Shown: piece after piece, positions 48,010 to 56,608 of the stretch
Layout: each line of letters opens with the position of its first letter
How positions within the stretch are numbered: position 1 is the first letter of the stretch
Virus record (IMG/VR): IMGVR_UViG_2718218168_000001
Span: 32,001-96,000 of that record
DNA: 64,000 nucleotides
Direction: 5' to 3' (one strand)
Source of the DNA: a virus
Lineage: Duplodnaviria; Heunggongvirae; Uroviricota; Caudoviricetes
Notes under the pieces: generated by a model
Databases searched by the model: none
What the model was told of the DNA's origin: nothing
What the model saw: the letters and a program-made list of their open reading frames with translations, nothing else
Position numbers and translations under genes: made by a program

Positions 48010-49044
48010 TTAACCTATTGCTACTGGTTTTAACAAACCAGCATCAAGTAGCTTGCGAGTTAACCACTGCTGGCCTTTACCCGTTAATTGGGGCGTCAGC
48101 CGTATCTGGTAGCCATTTTCATCATCCAGCACCACTTCTTTCACCGTGAAATACCCGGCGTTGATGTACTGTTGGCGCGGTACGTTTTTGCGCGCACCAA
48201 AAGCCATGAGAATGCCGTTCTGGCGCAACCATGAGAAAAGGGTGTTTTGCTTAAGTCCAACGACCTTTGCAAAGTTCCCGATCAGGATTCCATTGGCCAC
48301 TGATACCCGGTCGGCAAAATCGACTTTAGGGGCTGCGGCCACCAGCTGTTGTTCCAACTGCATTTTCTGTTCTGCTAACTCGGCAGCCAGGCGTAGGGCT
48401 TCTGGTAATGTCTGGGGGATCGATGGGGTAGGGGAGTTTGCCTGCTGTAATTCTTCCAGTTTGTCGATCAGCGAACGGCGGACCGCTTTTGACTCGCGCG
48501 CGGCAACTCGCAGGGCTTGTTTGTAGGTCATTGTTATAATATCTATTTCTGCGCCGTTTTTTTGACCTACGAAAATTTCGTAGGTTTCTCCTTCAAGTTC
48601 ATCCTTAACTCTGGCAATGAAATCATTATTGCGAACTGGTTTTTCGCTACATAATTTCCGTGCCTCATTGACCATCTTCAACAATGTTTGGCTGTCGATT
48701 GTGTCTCCGATGTTGGGGATGACATTCACGGCTGGTGTTGGCGTAGCTGACGTAACAGGTGCTGGTTTTTCAATATTCAAATTTTTACCGGTCACTCTGT
48801 GTGCCTCCTTTCTCATTTCTGCTACCACTGTTGCGTAACGTAGACGTCCTTGTTCAATCAAATAATCCCTGATCTCGGCTATCAGTAGCTTGTTGATCAC
48901 AGCCTTATCTGTTCGGGTATAAAAACGTCTGGTTATCATGAAATAGTTGGCAATTGCGCCGGGGATCTCCCGTGTCGGCATACAGGTTGTATGCAGGGCG
49001 ATCGCTTCGGCTATTTCATTACGGGTGACGAGAGGTTTTTTCAT
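48010..49044 (-). CDS. ant: Antirepressor Ant (KilAC-type C-terminal domain)
   Basis: About 345 aa from MKKPLVTRNEIAEAIALHT...; start lies inside the 3' end of icd; the longer ORF-track N-terminus is probably not translated. Confidence 0.7.
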   Translation of the reverse strand: MKKPLVTRNEIAEAIALHTTCMPTREIPGAIANYFMITRRFYTRTDKAVINKLLIAEIRDYLIEQGRLRYATVVAEMRKEAHRVTGKNLNIEKPAPVTSATPTPAVNVIPNIGDTIDSQTLLKMVNEARKLCSEKPVRNNDFIARVKDELEGETYEIFVGQKNGAEIDIITMTYKQALRVAARESKAVRRSLIDKLEELQQANSPTPSIPQTLPEALRLAAELAEQKMQLEQQLVAAAPKVDFADRVSVANGILIGNFAKVVGLKQNTLFSWLRQNGILMAFGARKNVPRQQYINAGYFTVKEVVLDDENGYQIRLTPQLTGKGQQWLTRKLLDAGLLKPVAIG

Positions 49045-49261
49045 AAATCCCCTGAACGTCGGCAGAGAAGGGGAGGTTCCAGTAACTAAGTGAATTGCGC
49101 GAGTTAGTTGAAAAACGGGCAGTAAAAATGCAGGGGCCATCAGGCAATTGAGAGCGTGCTTCGTCTTCTGTTGCTGCGATGACGAAGTGATAGTGGTGTT
49201 TTTTACAGGAATAGAAACGCCAGATGAATTCTTGGTGTGCGCAAGGATTGGCATTAACCAT
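49019..49261 (-). CDS. icd: Icd-like cell-division interference protein, immunity-region copy 2
   Basis: 80 aa; QEFIWRFYSCKKHHYHFVIAATEDEARSQLPDGPCIFTARFST. Confidence 0.7.
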   Translation of the reverse strand: MVNANPCAHQEFIWRFYSCKKHHYHFVIAATEDEARSQLPDGPCIFTARFSTNSRNSLSYWNLPFSADVQGIYEKTSRHP

Positions 49262-49319
49262 AGTTACGGCCTCACAATCAGGTTTAACAACCTGCTACCC
49301 GCTGCTAAACAGGTGGCAG

Positions 49320-49410
49320 GACGTGACGGGGTTAGCAGACTGGCGATTGTGAAACCAGCAGGCCGAAGCCTCCCCATCACGCCCCACCATAATTTGGGCG
49401 TAACGCGGTT
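49320..49410 (-). ncRNA. Putative c4-like antisense RNA region (copy 2)
   Basis: GTTAGCAG (49331-49338) is complementary to CTGCTAAAC direct repeats at 49302-49310 and 49481-49489; ends not determined. Confidence 0.35.
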
Positions 49411-49577
49411 TTACGGACACAAAAATACCGCAATATCGGATATCTGCGGCTGTCCGCACAATCATTCAGGCTGCTAAACCCGGTCGCAGAATTTGCTACG
49501 ACGGCGAAACTATAAGCCTGAACGATTAAAAGGTCAATATGATGCGAAAAGATAGCATTCACGACTTAAAAATACAA

Positions 49578-49592
49578 ATTTATTAGAGCAGA
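49578..49592 (-). promoter_or_regulatory. C1-repressor-type operator upstream of c4-icd-ant
   Basis: aatttattagagcag; reverse complement CTGCTCTAATAAATT. Confidence 0.6.
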
Positions 49593-49873
49593 TGAGTGTC
49601 GTGCAATAGAAGTATTATTTGTGATGAAAAATAATGCAGAGGGATATTGTTACTTTAAGATGGATATCAATAGTCGATACATAAATTAAGTTAGCAATAA
49701 ACTATTAACTTAAGAAATAATGCAGATGGTGAACTTGTCTCTGACTTTTCAGCTATACACAATAAGTTAGGGGTTGCTTATAAAAAGTTGATTAATTGAT
49801 ATAAGTCAATGGGAGTATTCTTGTTTACTTTCCGTTCTCGTGGTAACTTCTCGCCGGTTTTTGTTTTTCTTGG

Positions 49874-50395
49874 ATGATTCTTATGTCTAAAAAGTATACT
49901 TTATGCGCTCTTGTTGTATCTGCAATTCTTCTTTCTGGGTGTCAATCTAGCGGTGCTGATTATGCTGCCGATGTTTATGATACCGCTCAATTGAATTCGA
50001 AGCAGGAAACAAAGACAGTCAATATTATCTCTGTGCTTCCAGCTAAAGTGAAAGTTGATAATAAAGCTAATAAAGAAGCGGCACAGACATTTGGTGCGGT
50101 ACTGGGAGCTGTTGCTGGGGGCGTTGCCGGTTATAATGTTAAAGGCACATCGACACTGGGTGCTGTAGCTGGCGGTACTGGTGGTGCGGCTCTTGGTGCA
50201 GCGGCTGGTTCTTTGGTTAGTGATAAAACAATTGTTGAAGGTGTTTCACTGACTTATAAAGAAGGAACTAAGGTGTTCACTTCAACTCAAGTTGGTAAAG
50301 CATGCCAGTTTACAACGGGGCTTGCTGTGCTTATTTCAACTAAAGATAATGAAACTCGAATTCAGCCAAATGCTACTTGTCCAGAAAAGAAATAA
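49874..50395 (+). CDS. Lipoprotein with glycine-zipper region
   Basis: 173 aa; lipobox LLSGC; GAVLGAVAGGVAGY...GAVAGGTGGAALGAAAGS; AT-rich. Confidence 0.6.
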   Translation: MILMSKKYTLCALVVSAILLSGCQSSGADYAADVYDTAQLNSKQETKTVNIISVLPAKVKVDNKANKEAAQTFGAVLGAVAGGVAGYNVKGTSTLGAVAGGTGGAALGAAAGSLVSDKTIVEGVSLTYKEGTKVFTSTQVGKACQFTTGLAVLISTKDNETRIQPNATCPEKK

Positions 50396-50398
50396 TTT

Positions 50399-50938
50399 AT
50401 GAATAAAATTATTTTATTTCTAATCTTTTCTACGTTTAGTGTAGGCAATGCCTTGGCTAACTCGTTGCAAAGTCAAATTGCTGCTATTGCTCAAGCGGAA
50501 AATGAAGGGCGAGCTAAAGAGCAGCAAGCTGAGGATGCCAGAAAAGAACTTATTCGCCAACAAGCACAAGCTGAACGTATTAGAAGAGAAAAAGCAGCAT
50601 CTGCCGCTGCTGCACGCGAAAAACAGCGTGTTGCTGCAGAAAATGAACGTAGAGCAAAACGAGAAGCCGAGCTAGCAAATGACAAGAAGCGAGATCAAGC
50701 TTATGAGGATGAGCTTCGCAAGCTGCAACTCGAAAGCATGAAACTCGAACTGCAAGCAAAAGCGGCTCGTGTCCAGCGAGAAAACGATTTTATAGAGCAG
50801 GAGTTGAAGGAGAGAGCAGCTAAGACAGATGTAATTCAGTCTGAGGCTGATGCAAATAGAAATATTTCTACAGGAAGTAAAGATTTACTGCAAAGCGAAG
50901 GAAAAGCTAGAGAGAAGAAAGCTAGCAGTTGGTGGTAG
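50399..50938 (+). CDS. Secreted charged coiled-coil protein
   Basis: 179 aa; signal-peptide-like N-terminus (LFLIFSTFSVGNALA) then Lys/Arg/Glu-rich helical repeats. Confidence 0.55.
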   Translation: MNKIILFLIFSTFSVGNALANSLQSQIAAIAQAENEGRAKEQQAEDARKELIRQQAQAERIRREKAASAAAAREKQRVAAENERRAKREAELANDKKRDQAYEDELRKLQLESMKLELQAKAARVQRENDFIEQELKERAAKTDVIQSEADANRNISTGSKDLLQSEGKAREKKASSWW

Positions 50939-50994
50939 TAATCACTACGATTGCGAGCATACTGTCACAAATGACAACTCGTAGAATCTGTTAA

Positions 50995-52208
<1,214 letters not shown>

Positions 52209-53185: not shown

Positions 53186-56100
53186 ATGGAAAGAAAAAAC
53201 GCCAACATTGACGATGTGATAAGGACGGTTGAAACCGCCAGCGCAAAAGAGCTGGAAGAGCTTGCAGGTATTCGGGAAGCCGTTGAAGATTTGAAAGGGG
53301 GGCGAGTTGCTACAGTTGATCCTGTCTCTCGCAGTGTGTCGGCATTAAATCGCACAATCGAAAATTCCCGGCCAGACTTTGTGGCCAATGCGCCATCAGT
53401 GGACCCTATTGTTGAGGCAATGAAACGGCTTAATTTAGGGGACGTTTCTCGTGTAGTTCAGGAGGATGTTGCTCTACAGGAACCGCAGGCCAAATCAACT
53501 ACGCGAAAGGGTAAAAAACGACGCAAGAAGGCTATAACAGAAGATGTAAAGGCGCAACGGACCGAAGCAGCCGAACACGCTCGCGAAATGTTCGGTCAAA
53601 AAGGCGGTGCGCAAAAAAGCCAAAACCAACGCGATGCGCGTGGTCGTTTTATTGGAAAGTCAGGGAGTAAGGCCGCAGCGGAAGATGCCCGTGCTGAACG
53701 TGCTGAAAAGGCCAGGCGCAAAGAGGATGATGAGCGTCTAAATGCTGAATCAGGTTTATTAAAAAAACTGTCAAAAGTAGCTGAAGGCATAGGTAACCCT
53801 TCAGAGACTCGTGCCGTCGATGCGTTAGGTTATGCCGTTGCTGGTCCATTGTGGGCAGCAGGGAAGGAGCTTGGCGGGATATCAAAAGAAGTTGGTGGAT
53901 CGCTTAATGGTGCCAGAAAGTCTATTGCCGATGTGATTCGTGGCAATGACGATAACAGCCGTAGAAAAGGTTTTTTTAGGCGTAAATCGCAAAATAGTGC
54001 CGATGTCGTTCAGGTTAACACCCAAAAACGGACGGTTCAGGAACTTCAGGAGCAGACCAGCGAAATTAAAGAGGGCAATGACAAGATTCTCAGCGCCCTT
54101 GATCAGATAGCCAAAAACACCGGGAAAAAGAAGGGCGGCTTGCTGTCCAAACTATTTAGCCTGTTAGGGAAGGGGGCCGGTGGCGTCGCGTCGTTGTTAA
54201 TGGGGCGTGGCATGCTGAAAAAAGCTGGAGCACTCGCTTTTGGCGCTCTGGGGGCAAAGAAACTTGTAGGAATGCTACGCGGTGGTGGCAAGAAGACTCT
54301 CGCCCATGAAGGCGGAGATTTGGCTGCCCGGGCAGCAGGTAAACTTGGATTAAAGGCAGTTGGTAAAGGGGCGTTACGCGCAATTCCCCTAGTCGGCACA
54401 GTGGCTGGAGGTATTTATGATGCGGTAACCGGTTGGAATGATACAGAAGCGCAACGTCGAGCGTTTGGGCTTAAATCAGGACAAGATCCATCATTCCAGC
54501 AAAAAGCCGCTTATACGTTAGCTAATGTTCTTGATATGGGGGGACTGGTATCTGGTATTAGCAGCGCCATTGGTGAGGTTCTCAAATCACTTGGATTTGA
54601 GGATATCGGCAATATGTTGCAATCATTTTCGACGGAAAGTATTGCCCTGGCCATTGATAGTGGGATTACCAACTTAGAAACATATATTTCTAACCTTGGC
54701 GACACCATTTCTACCAAGTTCGATGATTACACAGCAAAGATTGGTGATGCTGTTTCAGCATGGTTTAGCGATACATCTAATAAGCTGCTTGAAAAGCTGG
54801 ATGCCATCAAAGACTTCTTTACTGTCGATAACCTGAAACAGGTTTTCAGTGATGCAATTGATAGTGCAATTGATTTCATTAAGAACCCAGGGAAACACAT
54901 TAAAGAGGCGGCTGGTAATATTTGGGATGGGGTTAAAAATTTACCAGGTAAAGCATTAGATGCAGCGGTTGATGCCGTTAAAAATACCCCTGCGGCAATG
55001 ATTGTATCAAAAATACCCAATCCGATCGGCGAGGCTAATGCGAAAGAAATCACTCCAGAGTTAAAAGCTCCGGTTAATAGCCACCAGGGGACATCTGATT
55101 CTAAAACTGAATCCGATGCCAAACAGACTAATATTGCTGCCCGCGTGATAAATGCGGCTCTGGATATGGCGAAAGATAGCAATAAAACAGTTAAAGAAAC
55201 TGCTAATCAGATTATCAATGCAAATGCCGTAGAAACGGGCAATAGCGCGTTGCAGAAAATTGATAAAGCTATTGGTCAAAATAGCTCGTCATCATCCTCG
55301 CTTAATACCACTGGCACCAGGAATGACATTCAGAAAGCTGCGGATACCTATAATAATGGCAACTTGGATGTAAAAGTCGGAAGTCTTGGCGCTGAAGGTA
55401 AGGCAAATCTCGATAAGTTGGCTCCGTATTTTGCTGAACTAGAGAATAAATATGGCCTTCCTGAAGGTACTCTTTACGCGATCGCTGCAACTGAATCTGG
55501 TGGTGATCCTAACGCAAAATCTACGCTTACAAGATCACCAAATGGAAAGCTAAGTGGTGGCGCTCTCGGAATGTTCCAGTTTACGAGCGTTGCTCGTGAG
55601 GAAACTGGATTATCCCGGGAAGATTCTTTTAATCCGGAAAAATCGGCAGAAGCTGCGGCTCTTCTCATGAGCAAGTATCTGAAGCAAGCCAATGGAGACT
55701 TAAACGAGGCCATCACTGCATATAACGCTGGGTTTGGCACTATCAATAAGTGGAAAAAAGGCACAGGTGACTTATCGAAAGAAAACCGTGAGTACGCGAT
55801 CAAGGTCAATACTCATCGTGCTCGCTATTTAGGTGGTGAAATCTATACACCTGGAGCAGGAGCACAGGGTGGGGCGCAATATGGAGTGAGGGGACCACTG
55901 CCTGATAACGCTGTTATCGATCAGTCTACTGGCCTGGCGTTTACCCCTGGTGATAGCCCGTTTGAGAAAGGCGGTCTGGTAGACAAAATCGGCAATGCTG
56001 TTGGCGTTAACGATCTGGTCAACAAATTCATGAATGGCCGGGGTATGCGTCGGGAAGTCGTTCAGGGAACGCTCGAAGAACGTGCACGAGGGAAGGGGAC

Positions 56101-56608
56101 CGCAACAGCAGCTGGCAATGTGTATGTTGATACTCCGATGCCAGTTGAAGAGGCGCGTCCGGTGGCCAGCAACTCAAGTTACTTTGACCAACTCGGCGCA
56201 CAAATGGGGATTGATGGACTATTCGATAAACTCCGCAACTCGCCGGGGATGCGGAAAAATAATGCGCTTGAACCAGCCTCCACGTCCCAGGTGACGACTG
56301 CCGCCAACGATTTGCAGCAACCAACCGGTCGTATGCAGATAGACGGACAGGTTATTAGTGACCTTGGCGGCTCCGGTGCCAAGCCGACAATGCAGTTGGC
56401 TGATAATACCGTTTCACTTGATGGTGAAACGAAGCGGCTGTTTGCGCAGATGACCTCATTGCTTGCCAGGATTGAAGAGCACACCAAAGACTCGGCGAAA
56501 GGCCAGGGAACTGTCGTAAAGGTCAGCACGCCTCAGCCGGGCGTTATGCGCACGGTACCACTGTCAATTGATGATCCGTTGATGAATGACTACGCGAGAG
56601 TTGATTGA
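53186..56608 (+). CDS. sit: Tape-measure-like structural protein with lytic transglycosylase domain (Sit-like)
   Basis: 1140 aa; Ala/Gly/Lys-rich repeats; SLT-type region AIAATESGGDPNAKS...GALGMFQF...AYNAG. Confidence 0.85.
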   Translation: MERKNANIDDVIRTVETASAKELEELAGIREAVEDLKGGRVATVDPVSRSVSALNRTIENSRPDFVANAPSVDPIVEAMKRLNLGDVSRVVQEDVALQEPQAKSTTRKGKKRRKKAITEDVKAQRTEAAEHAREMFGQKGGAQKSQNQRDARGRFIGKSGSKAAAEDARAERAEKARRKEDDERLNAESGLLKKLSKVAEGIGNPSETRAVDALGYAVAGPLWAAGKELGGISKEVGGSLNGARKSIADVIRGNDDNSRRKGFFRRKSQNSADVVQVNTQKRTVQELQEQTSEIKEGNDKILSALDQIAKNTGKKKGGLLSKLFSLLGKGAGGVASLLMGRGMLKKAGALAFGALGAKKLVGMLRGGGKKTLAHEGGDLAARAAGKLGLKAVGKGALRAIPLVGTVAGGIYDAVTGWNDTEAQRRAFGLKSGQDPSFQQKAAYTLANVLDMGGLVSGISSAIGEVLKSLGFEDIGNMLQSFSTESIALAIDSGITNLETYISNLGDTISTKFDDYTAKIGDAVSAWFSDTSNKLLEKLDAIKDFFTVDNLKQVFSDAIDSAIDFIKNPGKHIKEAAGNIWDGVKNLPGKALDAAVDAVKNTPAAMIVSKIPNPIGEANAKEITPELKAPVNSHQGTSDSKTESDAKQTNIAARVINAALDMAKDSNKTVKETANQIINANAVETGNSALQKIDKAIGQNSSSSSSLNTTGTRNDIQKAADTYNNGNLDVKVGSLGAEGKANLDKLAPYFAELENKYGLPEGTLYAIAATESGGDPNAKSTLTRSPNGKLSGGALGMFQFTSVAREETGLSREDSFNPEKSAEAAALLMSKYLKQANGDLNEAITAYNAGFGTINKWKKGTGDLSKENREYAIKVNTHRARYLGGEIYTPGAGAQGGAQYGVRGPLPDNAVIDQSTGLAFTPGDSPFEKGGLVDKIGNAVGVNDLVNKFMNGRGMRREVVQGTLEERARGKGTATAAGNVYVDTPMPVEEARPVASNSSYFDQLGAQMGIDGLFDKLRNSPGMRKNNALEPASTSQVTTAANDLQQPTGRMQIDGQVISDLGGSGAKPTMQLADNTVSLDGETKRLFAQMTSLLARIEEHTKDSAKGQGTVVKVSTPQPGVMRTVPLSIDDPLMNDYARVD

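What the first reader, a model, noticed from the sequence alone, without database searches (positions are those of the whole stretch)
49874..50938. Lipoprotein plus secreted coiled-coil protein divergently transcribed from the immunity region
An AT-rich pair, a glycine-zipper lipoprotein (lipobox LLSGC) and a signal-peptide-bearing Lys/Arg/Glu-rich helical protein, opens the plus-strand operon leading to the tail genes. Envelope-targeted proteins next to an immunity region are candidates for superinfection exclusion (P1 sim genes are periplasmic) or for envelope remodelling.
Basis: inference. Interest (0 to 1): 0.5.

Follow-up and report, generated by a model that had tools for sequence, protein, structure and literature searches.

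The report
Phage-borne copy of yfgH–yfgI envelope operon
The two genes are real and are a phage-carried version of a conserved bacterial outer-membrane operon (yfgH–yfgI), sitting exactly where phage P1 keeps its superinfection-exclusion (sim) genes, so they are a reasonable but untested exclusion or envelope-hardening candidate that is already catalogued in phage P7.

Summary
Window 49874-50395 encodes an outer-membrane lipoprotein and 50399-50938 a secreted, all-helical charged protein. They lie in an AT-rich 1.4-kb cassette, divergent from the c4-icd-ant immunity operon.

The window is a P7-type P1-like phage-plasmid (99.9% to RCS47). The genes are P7 upf50.5 and upf50.0, which are xenologues of the E. 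coli core operon yfgH-yfgI. YfgH is a SlyB-family glycine-zipper lipoprotein that stabilises the outer membrane. YfgI is DUF5384 and is uncharacterised.

The cassette replaces P1 simABC exactly, between the C1 operator of c4 and the late promoter LPsit. The tail genes therefore have their own promoter.

DUF5384 genes always follow a yfgH-like gene (59 of 59 loci). Copies on mobile elements form their own clade under strong purifying selection. That clade also occurs as end-of-prophage cargo in an unrelated P2-tailed prophage of E. coli and Salmonella.

All alternative cassettes in the sim slot encode exported proteins.

Best reading (about 0.5): an envelope module expressed in the lysogen that works like host YfgH. 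A dedicated Sim-like exclusion role is plausible (about 0.3) but has no direct evidence. Interest is modest.

The parts
49576..49592 (-). C1 repressor operator Op(c4)/Oc4. It marks the left edge of the exchangeable cassette.
   Evidence: It matches the C1 operator consensus with 2 mismatches. It is annotated at the same place in P7 and P1. Homology to P1 ends at 49590.
49591..50966 (.). Exchangeable 'sim-slot' cassette of 1376 bp and 40.3% GC. It has no similarity to P1, which holds simA-simB-simC here.
   Evidence: blastn of the window against P1 matches only 48900-49590 and 50967-51700.
49593..49873 (+). AT-rich leader (32% GC) with a candidate promoter: -35 TTGTTT at 49821-49826, a 17-nt spacer, and a TG-extended -10 TGgTAACTT at 49841-49849. 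A palindrome ATTGA-N6-TCAAT at 49795-49810 lies just upstream. The SD-like GGATGA is at 49872-49877.
   Evidence: The sequence was read. The -35, extended -10 and palindrome are shared with the divergent allele-2 cassette. The consensus scan found no + strand promoter at its threshold, so the promoter is inferred, not shown.
49874..50395 (+). yfgH-like outer-membrane lipoprotein gene (P7 upf50.5). It is a SlyB-family glycine-zipper 2TM protein. The probable true start is 49883 and the lipid-modified Cys codon is at 49940-49942.
   Evidence: The family profile matches SlyB 7OJF at E 1.2e-9 over the full length. The top Foldseek hit is SlyB at E 8e-7. It is 100% identical to P7 Upf50.5.
50399..50938 (+). 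yfgI-like secreted protein gene (P7 upf50.0, DUF5384). It has a cleavable signal peptide and about 159 residues of continuous helix with a conserved C-terminal half. It is probably translationally coupled to the upstream gene (3-nt gap).
   Evidence: Pfam PF17358 at E 3e-43, homologues, the AF2 model, composition, and 99.4% identity to P7 Upf50.0.
50968..50987 (+). Late promoter LPsit (-22 element and -10 TAGAAT). It marks the right edge of the cassette and drives pmgC-tub-pmgB-sit.
   Evidence: Position transferred from the P7 and P1 GenBank annotation. Homology to P1 resumes at 50967.
49309..49394 (-). Context only: C4 antisense RNA of the immI immunity operon (c4-icd-ant), transcribed divergently from the pair.
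   Evidence: Rfam RF01695 at 69.6 bits, E 6e-13.

Best explanation
The pair is a mobile-element lineage of the conserved two-gene envelope module yfgH-yfgI. It was swapped as a cassette into the 'sim slot' of a P7-type P1-like phage-plasmid.

Shown:
- Gene 1 is a Sec/Lol-exported lipoprotein of the SlyB/YfgH family. It has a periplasmic beta domain plus a glycine-zipper helical hairpin.
- Gene 2 is a signal-peptide-bearing protein of about 159 residues that is essentially all helix (DUF5384/YfgI).
- The two genes are always adjacent and co-oriented across Proteobacteria.
- Copies on mobile elements form their own old clade under strong purifying selection, with the same site-by-site constraint pattern as chromosomal copies.

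Inferred:
- The cassette is transcribed from its own sigma-70-type promoter in the lysogen, independently of the late tail operon downstream.
- The lipoprotein assembles, like SlyB and as proposed for host YfgH, into oligomeric rings in the outer membrane. These rings enclose lipid and outer-membrane-protein patches and stabilise the membrane.
- The helical partner, about 23 nm long if fully extended, works with it in the periplasm.
- The net effect is lysogenic conversion of the envelope: a tougher or remodelled outer membrane. Reduced entry of foreign phages or other agents is a possible consequence rather than the demonstrated purpose.
For: - Identity: 99.9% nt to RCS47 and 98.7% to P7, where the genes are upf50.5 and upf50.0.
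- Host homologues: chromosomal yfgH-yfgI next to guaA is found in 5419 of 5426 complete E. coli genomes, at about 69% nt identity.
- SlyB-family membership: profile vs PDB 7OJF E 1.2e-9 over the full length. Foldseek top hit is 7ojf at E 8e-7.
- Host YfgH function: outer-membrane localised, induced by outer-membrane biogenesis defects, stabilises outer-membrane proteins, and pulls down BamA, LptD, OmpF/C/A and LamB (bioRxiv 10.64898/2025.12.22.696046).
- Obligate pairing: 59 of 59 DUF5384 loci have a yfgH-like gene directly upstream on the same strand.
- Separate mobile-element clade.
- Selection: dN/dS 0.04-0.18 with synonymous sites near saturation. Per-region variability is the same in mobile-element and chromosomal copies.
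- Other carriers of this clade: a P2-tailed prophage at three different integration sites in E. coli and Salmonella, always at the tail-fibre end. More distant relatives of the pair lie on a 7.5-kb ColE1 plasmid beside an LPS phosphoethanolamine transferase and on a Vibrio plasmid.
- Own transcription unit: LPsit lies downstream of the pair. A conserved -35 / TG-extended -10 lies upstream.
Against: - There are no expression data. The promoter is weak by consensus and was not picked up by the scan.
- Nearly every E. coli already has chromosomal yfgHI, so a plain second copy seems a small benefit.
- The slot's other occupants (Sim, a Sit-like secreted protein, and a nuclease-like gene) suggest that the slot is selected for exclusion or defence rather than housekeeping.
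- The AlphaFold monomer of the lipoprotein has low confidence (mean pLDDT 57).
- Ring formation and any H-I contact were not modelled.
- YfgI has no known function.
Confidence: 0.5

Rival explanations
1. The pair is a dedicated superinfection-exclusion or anti-phage module that functionally replaces Sim. The outer-membrane ring-forming lipoprotein and its periplasm-length helical partner would block adsorption or the trans-envelope DNA-injection step of incoming P1-like or other phages. This would be a host lipoprotein family co-opted for exclusion, as TraT was by F plasmids.
For: - It occupies exactly the P1 simABC slot, bounded by Oc4 and LPsit.
- All three non-homologous cassette types in the slot encode signal-peptide proteins.
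- One of them, full-length SimA, carries a 47-aa segment that is 49% identical to the injection/tape-measure protein Sit.
- The allele-2 cassette is accompanied by a DUF559/REase-like gene with weak PADLOC hits.
- The two yfgHI alleles in the slot are saturated at synonymous sites, while the window's backbone flanks are 95-97% identical to P1. This fits cassette exchange rather than divergence in place.
- In the P2-tailed prophage the pair sits next to the tail-fibre genes. From established knowledge, that is where receptor-blocking lipoproteins such as Cor are found.
- Host YfgH binds outer-membrane proteins that serve as phage receptors.
- The TraT precedent is from PMC11733297.
Against: - No homology to Sim, Cor, Llp or any PADLOC model.
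- No similarity to Sit.
- The proteins are highly conserved with host orthologues, and the mobile-element clade shows no accelerated evolution.
- The family also rides on non-phage elements.
- The P1 receptor is LPS, not an outer-membrane protein (established knowledge).
- No phenotype has been reported (one search returned nothing; none was mentioned in what was read).
Confidence: 0.3
2. The pair is a virulence or serum-resistance type of conversion gene, like TraT, Bor or Iss. The surface-reaching lipoprotein would protect the lysogen from complement, bile or antimicrobial peptides in the animal host.
For: - Weak, sub-threshold resemblance to TraT: Pfam 23.1 bits against a cut-off of 31, and Foldseek ranks 2-4.
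- Carried by phage-plasmids of human and animal E. coli and Salmonella.
- A relative on a small plasmid lies beside an LPS phosphoethanolamine transferase.
- The S. Typhi yfgHI orthologues (srgIL) are SdiA-regulated (PMC11619404).
Against: - The TraT similarity is not significant (E 0.2-0.3).
- The family is also found in environmental and insect-associated bacteria.
- No phenotype data exist.
- This overlaps with, rather than excludes, the best explanation.
Confidence: 0.1
3. The pair belongs to the late morphogenetic operon, as tail or virion components or assembly factors, as some database records label it.
For: It is co-directional with pmgC-tub-pmgB-sit. The phage phi456 record labels the two genes 'minor tail protein' and 'tail tip protein'.
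Against: - Both proteins carry export signals, one with a lipobox.
- The late promoter lies downstream of them.
- P1 and other Punavirus relatives lack them entirely and still make virions.
- The homologues are core chromosomal envelope genes.
Confidence: 0.03
4. The pair is neutral hitch-hiking DNA with no selected function in the phage.
For: The AT-rich cassette lies in a known hypervariable region of P1-like phage-plasmids (PMC9603915).
Against: - Both genes are intact, and dN/dS is 0.04-0.18 across old mobile-element lineages.
- About 187 of roughly 505 close P1-like plasmids in PLSDB carry it.
- It is retained in a second phage family.
Confidence: 0.05

Closest known systems
E. coli yfgH-yfgI operon (YfgH outer-membrane integrity lipoprotein; YfgI/DUF5384)
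   Same: - Same two-gene order, spacing and lengths.
- Mature YfgH is 73% identical and YfgI 49% identical to the K-12 proteins.
- Same lipobox, glycine zipper, Cys144/Cys169 pair and conserved C-terminal half of YfgI.
   Different: - Carried on a phage-plasmid in the sim slot rather than next to guaA.
- Belongs to a separate clade restricted to mobile elements.
- Different upstream region, so probably different regulation.
- The middle of YfgI is 71% different.
SlyB (PhoPQ-regulated glycine-zipper lipoprotein; cryo-EM structures 7OJF/7OJG)
   Same: - Lipoprotein with a beta domain plus a glycine-zipper helical hairpin.
- Full-length profile match at E 1.2e-9 and top fold hit.
- The proposed mechanism is modelled on SlyB rings.
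   Different: - Only about 25% identity.
- SlyB has no DUF5384 partner.
- Host YfgH and SlyB do not cross-complement and have different suppressors (preprint).
Phage P1 SimA/SimB/SimC superinfection exclusion
   Same: - Identical genomic slot between Oc4 and LPsit.
- Same orientation.
- Exported proteins.
   Different: - No sequence similarity.
- Sim's exclusion phenotype is experimentally known (cited in PMC8546580), whereas this pair has none reported.
TraT surface-exclusion lipoprotein of F-like plasmids (9FS5, 9FSM, 9E2V)
   Same: - Outer-membrane lipoprotein with a helical membrane domain.
- Forms oligomeric rings.
- A chromosomal family co-opted by mobile elements (PMC11733297).
- Weak sequence and fold resemblance.
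   Different: - Below the Pfam threshold and Foldseek E 0.2-0.3, so not a member.
- TraT is about 225 aa, is a decamer with an extracellular ring, and has no helical partner gene.
Receptor-masking phage lipoproteins (T5 Llp; Cor of phi80/N15/HK022) and outer-membrane morons (lambda Bor, Lom)
   Same: Small envelope proteins encoded by temperate phages and expressed in lysogens. They often lie near tail-fibre genes, as the pair does in the P2-tailed prophage. The properties of Llp, Cor, Bor and Lom are from established knowledge, not tested here.
   Different: - No homology was detected in the PHROG or Pfam searches.
- This is a two-gene module with a core chromosomal counterpart.

Membership tests
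YfgH / SlyB-family glycine-zipper outer-membrane lipoprotein | Signal peptide with lipobox and invariant Cys; +2 residue not Asp (outer-membrane sorting) | tested here: met
   The sequence reads ...AILLSGC|QSS, with Cys23 invariant in 42 homologues. Lipidation itself was not tested.
YfgH / SlyB-family glycine-zipper outer-membrane lipoprotein | Glycine-zipper (GxxxG/A) two-helix hairpin flanked by beta-strand domain; homology to SlyB/YfgH over the full length | tested here: met
   - The profile of 42 sequences matches SlyB 7OJF at E 1.2e-9 over residues 9-162.
- Foldseek gives 7ojf at E 8e-7, probability 1.00.
- The model's secondary-structure order is beta, helix, helix, beta.
- Pfam PF05433 alone is sub-threshold (18.2 bits against a cut-off of 24.2).
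- Identity to E. coli YfgH is 66-73%.
YfgH / SlyB-family glycine-zipper outer-membrane lipoprotein | Oligomeric ring in the outer membrane; stabilises the outer membrane under stress | not testable with these tools
The phenotype needs experiments.
DUF5384 / YfgI | Match to Pfam PF17358 above the gathering score | tested here: met
   147.8 bits against a cut-off of 25, E 3e-43, covering residues 39-179.
DUF5384 / YfgI | Encoded immediately downstream of a yfgH-like lipoprotein gene on the same strand | tested here: met
   There is a 3-nt gap in the window. The same arrangement holds in 59 of 59 loci from genome contigs and in all mobile-element loci examined.
P1 Sim superinfection-exclusion system | Sequence homology to SimA, SimB or SimC | tested here: not met
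   There is no nucleotide similarity between the cassettes. The P1 locus has no yfgH or yfgI HMM hit.
P1 Sim superinfection-exclusion system | Location between the C1 operator of c4 and LPsit/pmgC, transcribed away from immI; exported product | tested here: met
P1 Sim superinfection-exclusion system | Blocks superinfecting P1 after adsorption | not testable with these tools
   This needs phage infection assays.
TraT surface-exclusion / complement-resistance lipoprotein (PF05818) | Pfam match above the gathering score; TraT fold | tested here: not met
   Pfam scores 23.1 bits against a cut-off of 31. Foldseek to 9e2v, 9fsm and 9fs5 gives E 0.18-0.29 and TM about 0.2. No TraT chain appears in the profile search of the PDB at E up to 1.
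Known anti-phage defence systems (PADLOC-DB) | Match to any PADLOC protein model | tested here: not met
   There are no hits at E up to 0.1 for either protein.

The most novel reading that the evidence does not exclude
The phage-borne YfgH/YfgI pair is a new kind of envelope-level superinfection-exclusion or anti-phage system. A SlyB-like outer-membrane ring, with a rod-like helical partner about as long as the periplasm is wide, would cage receptors or obstruct the trans-periplasmic injection path. It would have been co-opted from a core envelope-stress operon and would be interchangeable with Sim in the same slot of P1-like phage-plasmids. If so, the 'sim slot' would be a dedicated hotspot of non-homologous injection blockers, including a secreted mimic of the Sit protein.
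Probability: 0.25. Interest if true: 0.7.

Novelty: new member of a known kind. Interest (0 to 1): 0.35.

Why it matters
- P1-like phage-plasmids are common in clinical and farm E. coli and Salmonella and spread resistance genes. About a third of the close P1 relatives in PLSDB carry this cassette, so whatever it does to the envelope affects many strains.
- It offers a natural gain-of-function handle on yfgH-yfgI. That operon is a core envelope module whose lipoprotein has only just been characterised and whose partner YfgI has no known role.
- If the pair excludes phages, it would be a second example, after TraT, of a housekeeping outer-membrane lipoprotein family recruited by mobile elements for exclusion.
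- If it only hardens the membrane, it is an ordinary lysogenic-conversion moron.

Tried and rejected
- **'A third phage family carries the pair' (phage TL-2011b): rejected.** The first 3.5 kb of that stretch is 99.2% identical to the K-12 chromosome from pdeF to yfgI, so it is host flank of a prophage. The same artefact explains dozens of IMG/VR hits at 47% identity that lie about 0.5 kb from contig ends.
- **TraT membership: rejected.** It is sub-threshold in Pfam and not significant by fold.
- **PADLOC: no hits. NCBIfam: nothing meaningful.**
- **The PHROG label 'DNA methyltransferase' for the lipoprotein: rejected as a mis-annotation.**
- **Similarity of either protein to the injection protein Sit: none.**
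- **Sequence search of the PDB with the YfgI profile: nothing.** A fold search on a single long helix was judged uninformative and was not run.
- **Consensus promoter and terminator scan: no + strand promoter or post-gene terminator at its thresholds.** The promoter proposed here rests only on conservation between two alleles.
- **Literature searches.** DUF5384, upf50.0, upf50.5 and PF17358 returned nothing. The P1 genome paper (tried under the id PMC523184) is not held.
- **Domain fusions that might link YfgI to a function.** 316 representative clusters were found, and almost all those listed are stand-alone proteins of 150-230 aa. One 409-aa protein has an unrelated coiled N-terminal extension, and two have an extra C-terminal transmembrane helix.
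- **A test for faster evolution of exposed regions in the mobile-element clade: negative.**
Full report
**What is there**

The window around the finding is a P1-like phage-plasmid. Bases 49500-51100 are 99.9% identical to Escherichia phage RCS47 and 98.7% to phage P7. On the minus strand lie repL, kilA, ant1/2 and icd, followed by:
- the C4 antisense RNA (Rfam 69.6 bits, 49309-49394);
- its a1/b1 targets (49463-49515);
- a C1 operator at 49576-49592.

On the plus strand come the two ORFs of the finding, then pmgC, tub, pmgB and the 1140-aa sit gene. In P7 the two ORFs are annotated upf50.5 ('outer membrane lipoprotein of unknown function') and upf50.0 ('membrane protein of unknown function'), each with a signal peptide. 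The window proteins are 100% and 99.4% identical to them.

**The observation**

ORF1 (49874-50395):
- It has a classical lipoprotein signal peptide (…AILLSGC|QSS, Gln at +2).
- It has a run of GxxxG/A motifs between residues 70 and 112, and two further conserved cysteines at 144 and 169.
- The second ATG (49883) is the likelier start. It is preceded by GGATGA, as in the related cassettes, and gives the family's usual 170-171 aa.

ORF2 (50399-50938):
- It starts 3 nt after ORF1 and has an AXA signal-peptidase site.
- It is 41% charged.
- AlphaFold models it as one uninterrupted helix (residues 3-178, mean pLDDT 87.6).

The cassette is AT-rich (40.3% GC; leader 32.2%) against 47-48% around it. 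The description is therefore accurate.

The one correction concerns the tail operon. The late promoter LPsit, annotated in both P1 and P7, lies between ORF2 and pmgC, at window 50968-50987. The pair is therefore its own unit upstream of the tail operon, not the operon's first genes.

**What the genes are**

A blastn of the pair against 5426 complete E. coli genomes hits 5419 of them at about 69% identity. [quoted passage not shown]
- ORF2 matches Pfam DUF5384 at 147.8 bits.
- A profile of 42 ORF1 homologues matches the solved SlyB structure (7OJF/7OJG) over its whole length at E 1.2e-9.
- The AlphaFold monomer has low confidence (pLDDT 57). Even so, it has the SlyB order of elements, and Foldseek puts SlyB first (E 8e-7). 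TraT structures follow at non-significant E 0.2-0.3.
- The weak Pfam TraT hit (23.1 bits, cut-off 31) is below threshold. This is a SlyB/YfgH-family protein, not a TraT.

**What is known about the host proteins**

A December 2025 preprint (bioRxiv 10.64898/2025.12.22.696046) reports the following for E. coli YfgH:
- it is located in the outer membrane;
- it is strongly induced when LPS or outer-membrane-protein biogenesis is disturbed;
- it is needed for SDS/EDTA tolerance, and mild overexpression rescues outer-membrane-protein levels;
- it co-purifies with BamA, LptD, OmpF/C/A, LamB and TonB-dependent receptors;
- it is predicted to form SlyB-like rings.

Earlier genetic-interaction work linked yfgH to lptD and to outer-membrane integrity (PMC3219608). 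YfgI is essentially uncharacterised; the only report is a nalidixic-acid sensitivity (PMC3536626). In S. Typhi the orthologues (srgIL) are SdiA-regulated and are absent from S. Typhimurium (PMC11619404). No paper in the library mentions DUF5384 or upf50.0/50.5.

**The slot**

Aligning the window to P1 shows homology up to 49590 (inside the C1 operator) and again from 50967 (at LPsit). The 1376 bp in between have no counterpart. P1 has simA, simB and simC there, with predicted sigma-70 promoters.

This 'simABC' region is one of eight recognised hypervariable, low-GC regions of P1-like phage-plasmids (PMC9603915). At least four kinds of content occupy the slot:
- **(i) P1 type:** simA' (52 aa) + simB + simC.
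- **(ii) Full-length simA type:** a 215-aa and a 158-aa ORF, both with signal peptides (phage vB_EcoM-Ro157c2YLVW).
- **(iii) The present cassette.**
- **(iv) Allele 2:** a second yfgHI-like allele, 84-87% identical in protein, followed by a 419-aa DUF559/REase-like protein.

SimC also has a signal peptide, so every version encodes exported proteins.

In PLSDB, about 505 plasmids encode PmgC at 90% identity or more. Of these:
- about 167 carry this lipoprotein at 95% or more;
- 20 carry allele 2;
- 140 carry SimC;
- at least 84 carry the full-length 215-aa ORF.

The yfgHI-type cassette is thus the commonest single occupant. Among complete E. coli genomes, 181 of 5426 carry it.

**A conserved two-gene module with a mobile lineage**

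A scan of one genome per species for DUF5384 returned 59 loci. They came from Enterobacterales, Pasteurellaceae, Vibrionaceae, Aeromonadales, Pseudomonas, Shewanella, Nitrosomonas and Acetobacteraceae. In all 59 a yfgH-like gene lies directly upstream on the same strand. Only the Escherichia/Citrobacter group has guaA next door.

A neighbour-joining tree of the concatenated mature proteins groups four copies into one clade:
- the window copy;
- allele 2;
- a copy on an IS-rich E. coli island;
- a copy in a prophage.

This clade is separate from the guaA-linked Escherichia/Citrobacter genes and nearer to the Pantoea and Xenorhabdus copies.

Within the clade, dN/dS is 0.04-0.18 and synonymous sites are close to saturation. 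This holds even between the two alleles that sit in the same slot, while the window's own backbone flanks are 95-97% identical to P1. The alleles are therefore old and were exchanged as cassettes rather than diverging in place.

Region-by-region variability is the same in mobile and chromosomal copies. Variability is high in the signal peptide, the hairpin tip and the middle of YfgI, and low elsewhere. The mobile proteins therefore seem to be under the same functional constraints as the host ones.

**Other carriers**

The prophage copy belongs to a myovirus with P2-type tail genes. The pair always sits at the tail-fibre end of the prophage, and at two of the three sites an ORF6N-domain gene lies alongside it. 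The prophage is found at three different integration sites:
- next to yecD in E. coli;
- next to ompW/yciE in E. coli;
- next to yecA in S. Typhimurium.

This shows that the pair is phage cargo, not host flank.

More distant relatives of the pair, outside the mobile clade in the tree, also ride on non-phage elements:
- a 7.5-kb ColE1-type plasmid beside a CptA-like LPS phosphoethanolamine transferase, where yfgI is interrupted by a stop;
- a Vibrio parahaemolyticus plasmid with conjugation genes.

By contrast, the 'phage' TL-2011b copy is an artefact. That part of the record is 99.2% identical to the K-12 chromosome. The many IMG/VR hits at 47% identity near contig ends are the same kind of prophage-boundary spill-over.

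**How it most likely works**

Shown:
- export signals and SlyB-family homology;
- obligate pairing of the two genes;
- purifying selection;
- independence from LPsit;
- cassette exchange into the sim slot.

Inferred:
- Transcription in the lysogen from a weak promoter. Its elements are -35 TTGTTT at 49821-49826 and TG-extended -10 TAACTT at 49844-49849, preceded by a small palindrome. These are shared with allele 2 although the rest of the leader has diverged. The consensus scan did not report this promoter.
- Assembly of the lipoprotein into rings that enclose lipid and outer-membrane-protein patches, as solved for SlyB and proposed for YfgH.
- Co-operation with the helical partner.

On the partner: its N-terminal half is a variable E/R/K/A-rich spacer with almost no hydrophobic residues. 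Its C-terminal 85 residues are conserved from E. coli to Haemophilus and end in WW or WF. A few distant homologues add a transmembrane helix at that end.

My best reading, at about 0.5, is lysogenic conversion of the envelope using the host-like activity. The main rival, at about 0.3, is that the module has been selected in this slot as an exclusion or anti-phage device. The slot argument is real but indirect:
- Sim excludes superinfecting P1 (cited in PMC8546580).
- The full-length SimA homologue carries a Sit-like segment.
- Allele 2 travels with a nuclease-like gene.

The two readings are not exclusive, because extra YfgH-like rings around receptor proteins could themselves lower phage entry. 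Virion-component and neutral-DNA readings are unlikely (see the rival explanations).

**Novelty and verdict**

The genes themselves have been deposited and described as YfgH/YfgI-like since the P7 genome record, and the variability of the sim region is published. This analysis adds four points:
- the strict H-I pairing;
- the separate mobile clade shared by two unrelated temperate phage families;
- the census of slot occupants, all of them exported proteins;
- the removal of false 'phage' occurrences.

No function has been shown for the phage copy. It is a new member of a known kind, of modest interest, with a clear and cheap experimental test.

Noticed in passing
L074:1690-2337 (phage vB_EcoM-Ro157c2YLVW, sim slot); compare window 53186-56608 (sit) and P1 simA (L002:3059-3217): P1 'SimA' (52 aa) is 93% identical to the first 41 residues of a 215-aa secreted protein found in the same slot of other P1-like elements. 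P1 simA therefore looks like a truncated remnant. Residues 122-168 of the full-length protein are 49% identical (E 6e-9) to Sit residues 937-979, and more weakly similar to Sit 1007-1051. This could be a periplasmic decoy of the injection/tape-measure protein. At least 84 PLSDB plasmids carry the full-length form.
   Followed up: partly
L013:4889-6148 (IncY P1-like plasmid pLR-25_1, between the allele-2 yfgI-like gene and pmgC): A 419-aa protein with a DUF559/REase_MTES_1575 nuclease-like domain and weak PADLOC hits (PDC-S37, Hhe) sits in the sim slot next to the second yfgHI allele. This suggests the slot also collects defence-type genes.
   Followed up: partly
L009:1-3534 (GenBank JQ011317 / NC_019445, phage TL-2011b); IMG/VR loci L102-L158: The deposited 'complete genome' of phage TL-2011b includes about 3.5 kb of host chromosome (pdeF-yfgG-yfgH-yfgI, 99.2% identical to K-12). 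Dozens of IMG/VR prophage contigs of about 40 kb likewise end just past a yfgI-like gene that is about 47% identical to the query, the level of host YfgI. They were not aligned to the chromosome, but they look like the same boundary spill-over. A family of prophages appears to integrate beside yfgI/guaA, and its boundaries are over-called.
   Followed up: yes
window 49874-50395 and its RefSeq counterparts (NC_050152, NC_042128, NC_031129, NC_019445): PHROG 1277 is labelled 'DNA methyltransferase' although it is the YfgH-like lipoprotein family. The wrong name has been copied into RefSeq phage annotations. The phi456 record calls the two genes 'minor tail protein' and 'tail tip protein'.
   Followed up: yes
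L011 (E. coli plasmid pYLMB10c, 7538 bp) and L022 (Acinetobacter sp. contig, 7665 bp): A small mobilizable ColE1-type plasmid carries a yfgH-like gene (78.5% identical in the mature protein). It also carries a yfgI-like gene interrupted by an in-frame stop and a truncated CptA-like LPS phosphoethanolamine transferase, so it is effectively an envelope-modification mini-plasmid. A contig from an Acinetobacter assembly carries an identical pair.
   Followed up: partly
L003, L073, L075/L076 (P2-tailed prophage in E. coli and S. Typhimurium): The same prophage type carries the yfgHI-like pair at its tail-fibre end at three different chromosomal sites. At two of them (L073, L075/L076) an ORF6N-domain gene lies alongside it. 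The module is a moron comparable in position to other tail-fibre-adjacent cargo.
   Followed up: partly
proteins P0305, P0336, P0331 (DUF5384 relatives): Two distant YfgI homologues have an extra C-terminal transmembrane helix after the conserved W-containing end, which hints that this end lies near a membrane. One 409-aa protein has a long repeat-rich coiled N-terminal extension.
   Followed up: no
window 49421-49502 (-): There is a sub-threshold Rfam match to isrK (43.7 bits, gathering score 50). It overlaps the c4 a1/b1 target region and is probably the known relationship between the isrK family and the P1-type c4/ant leader.
   Followed up: no
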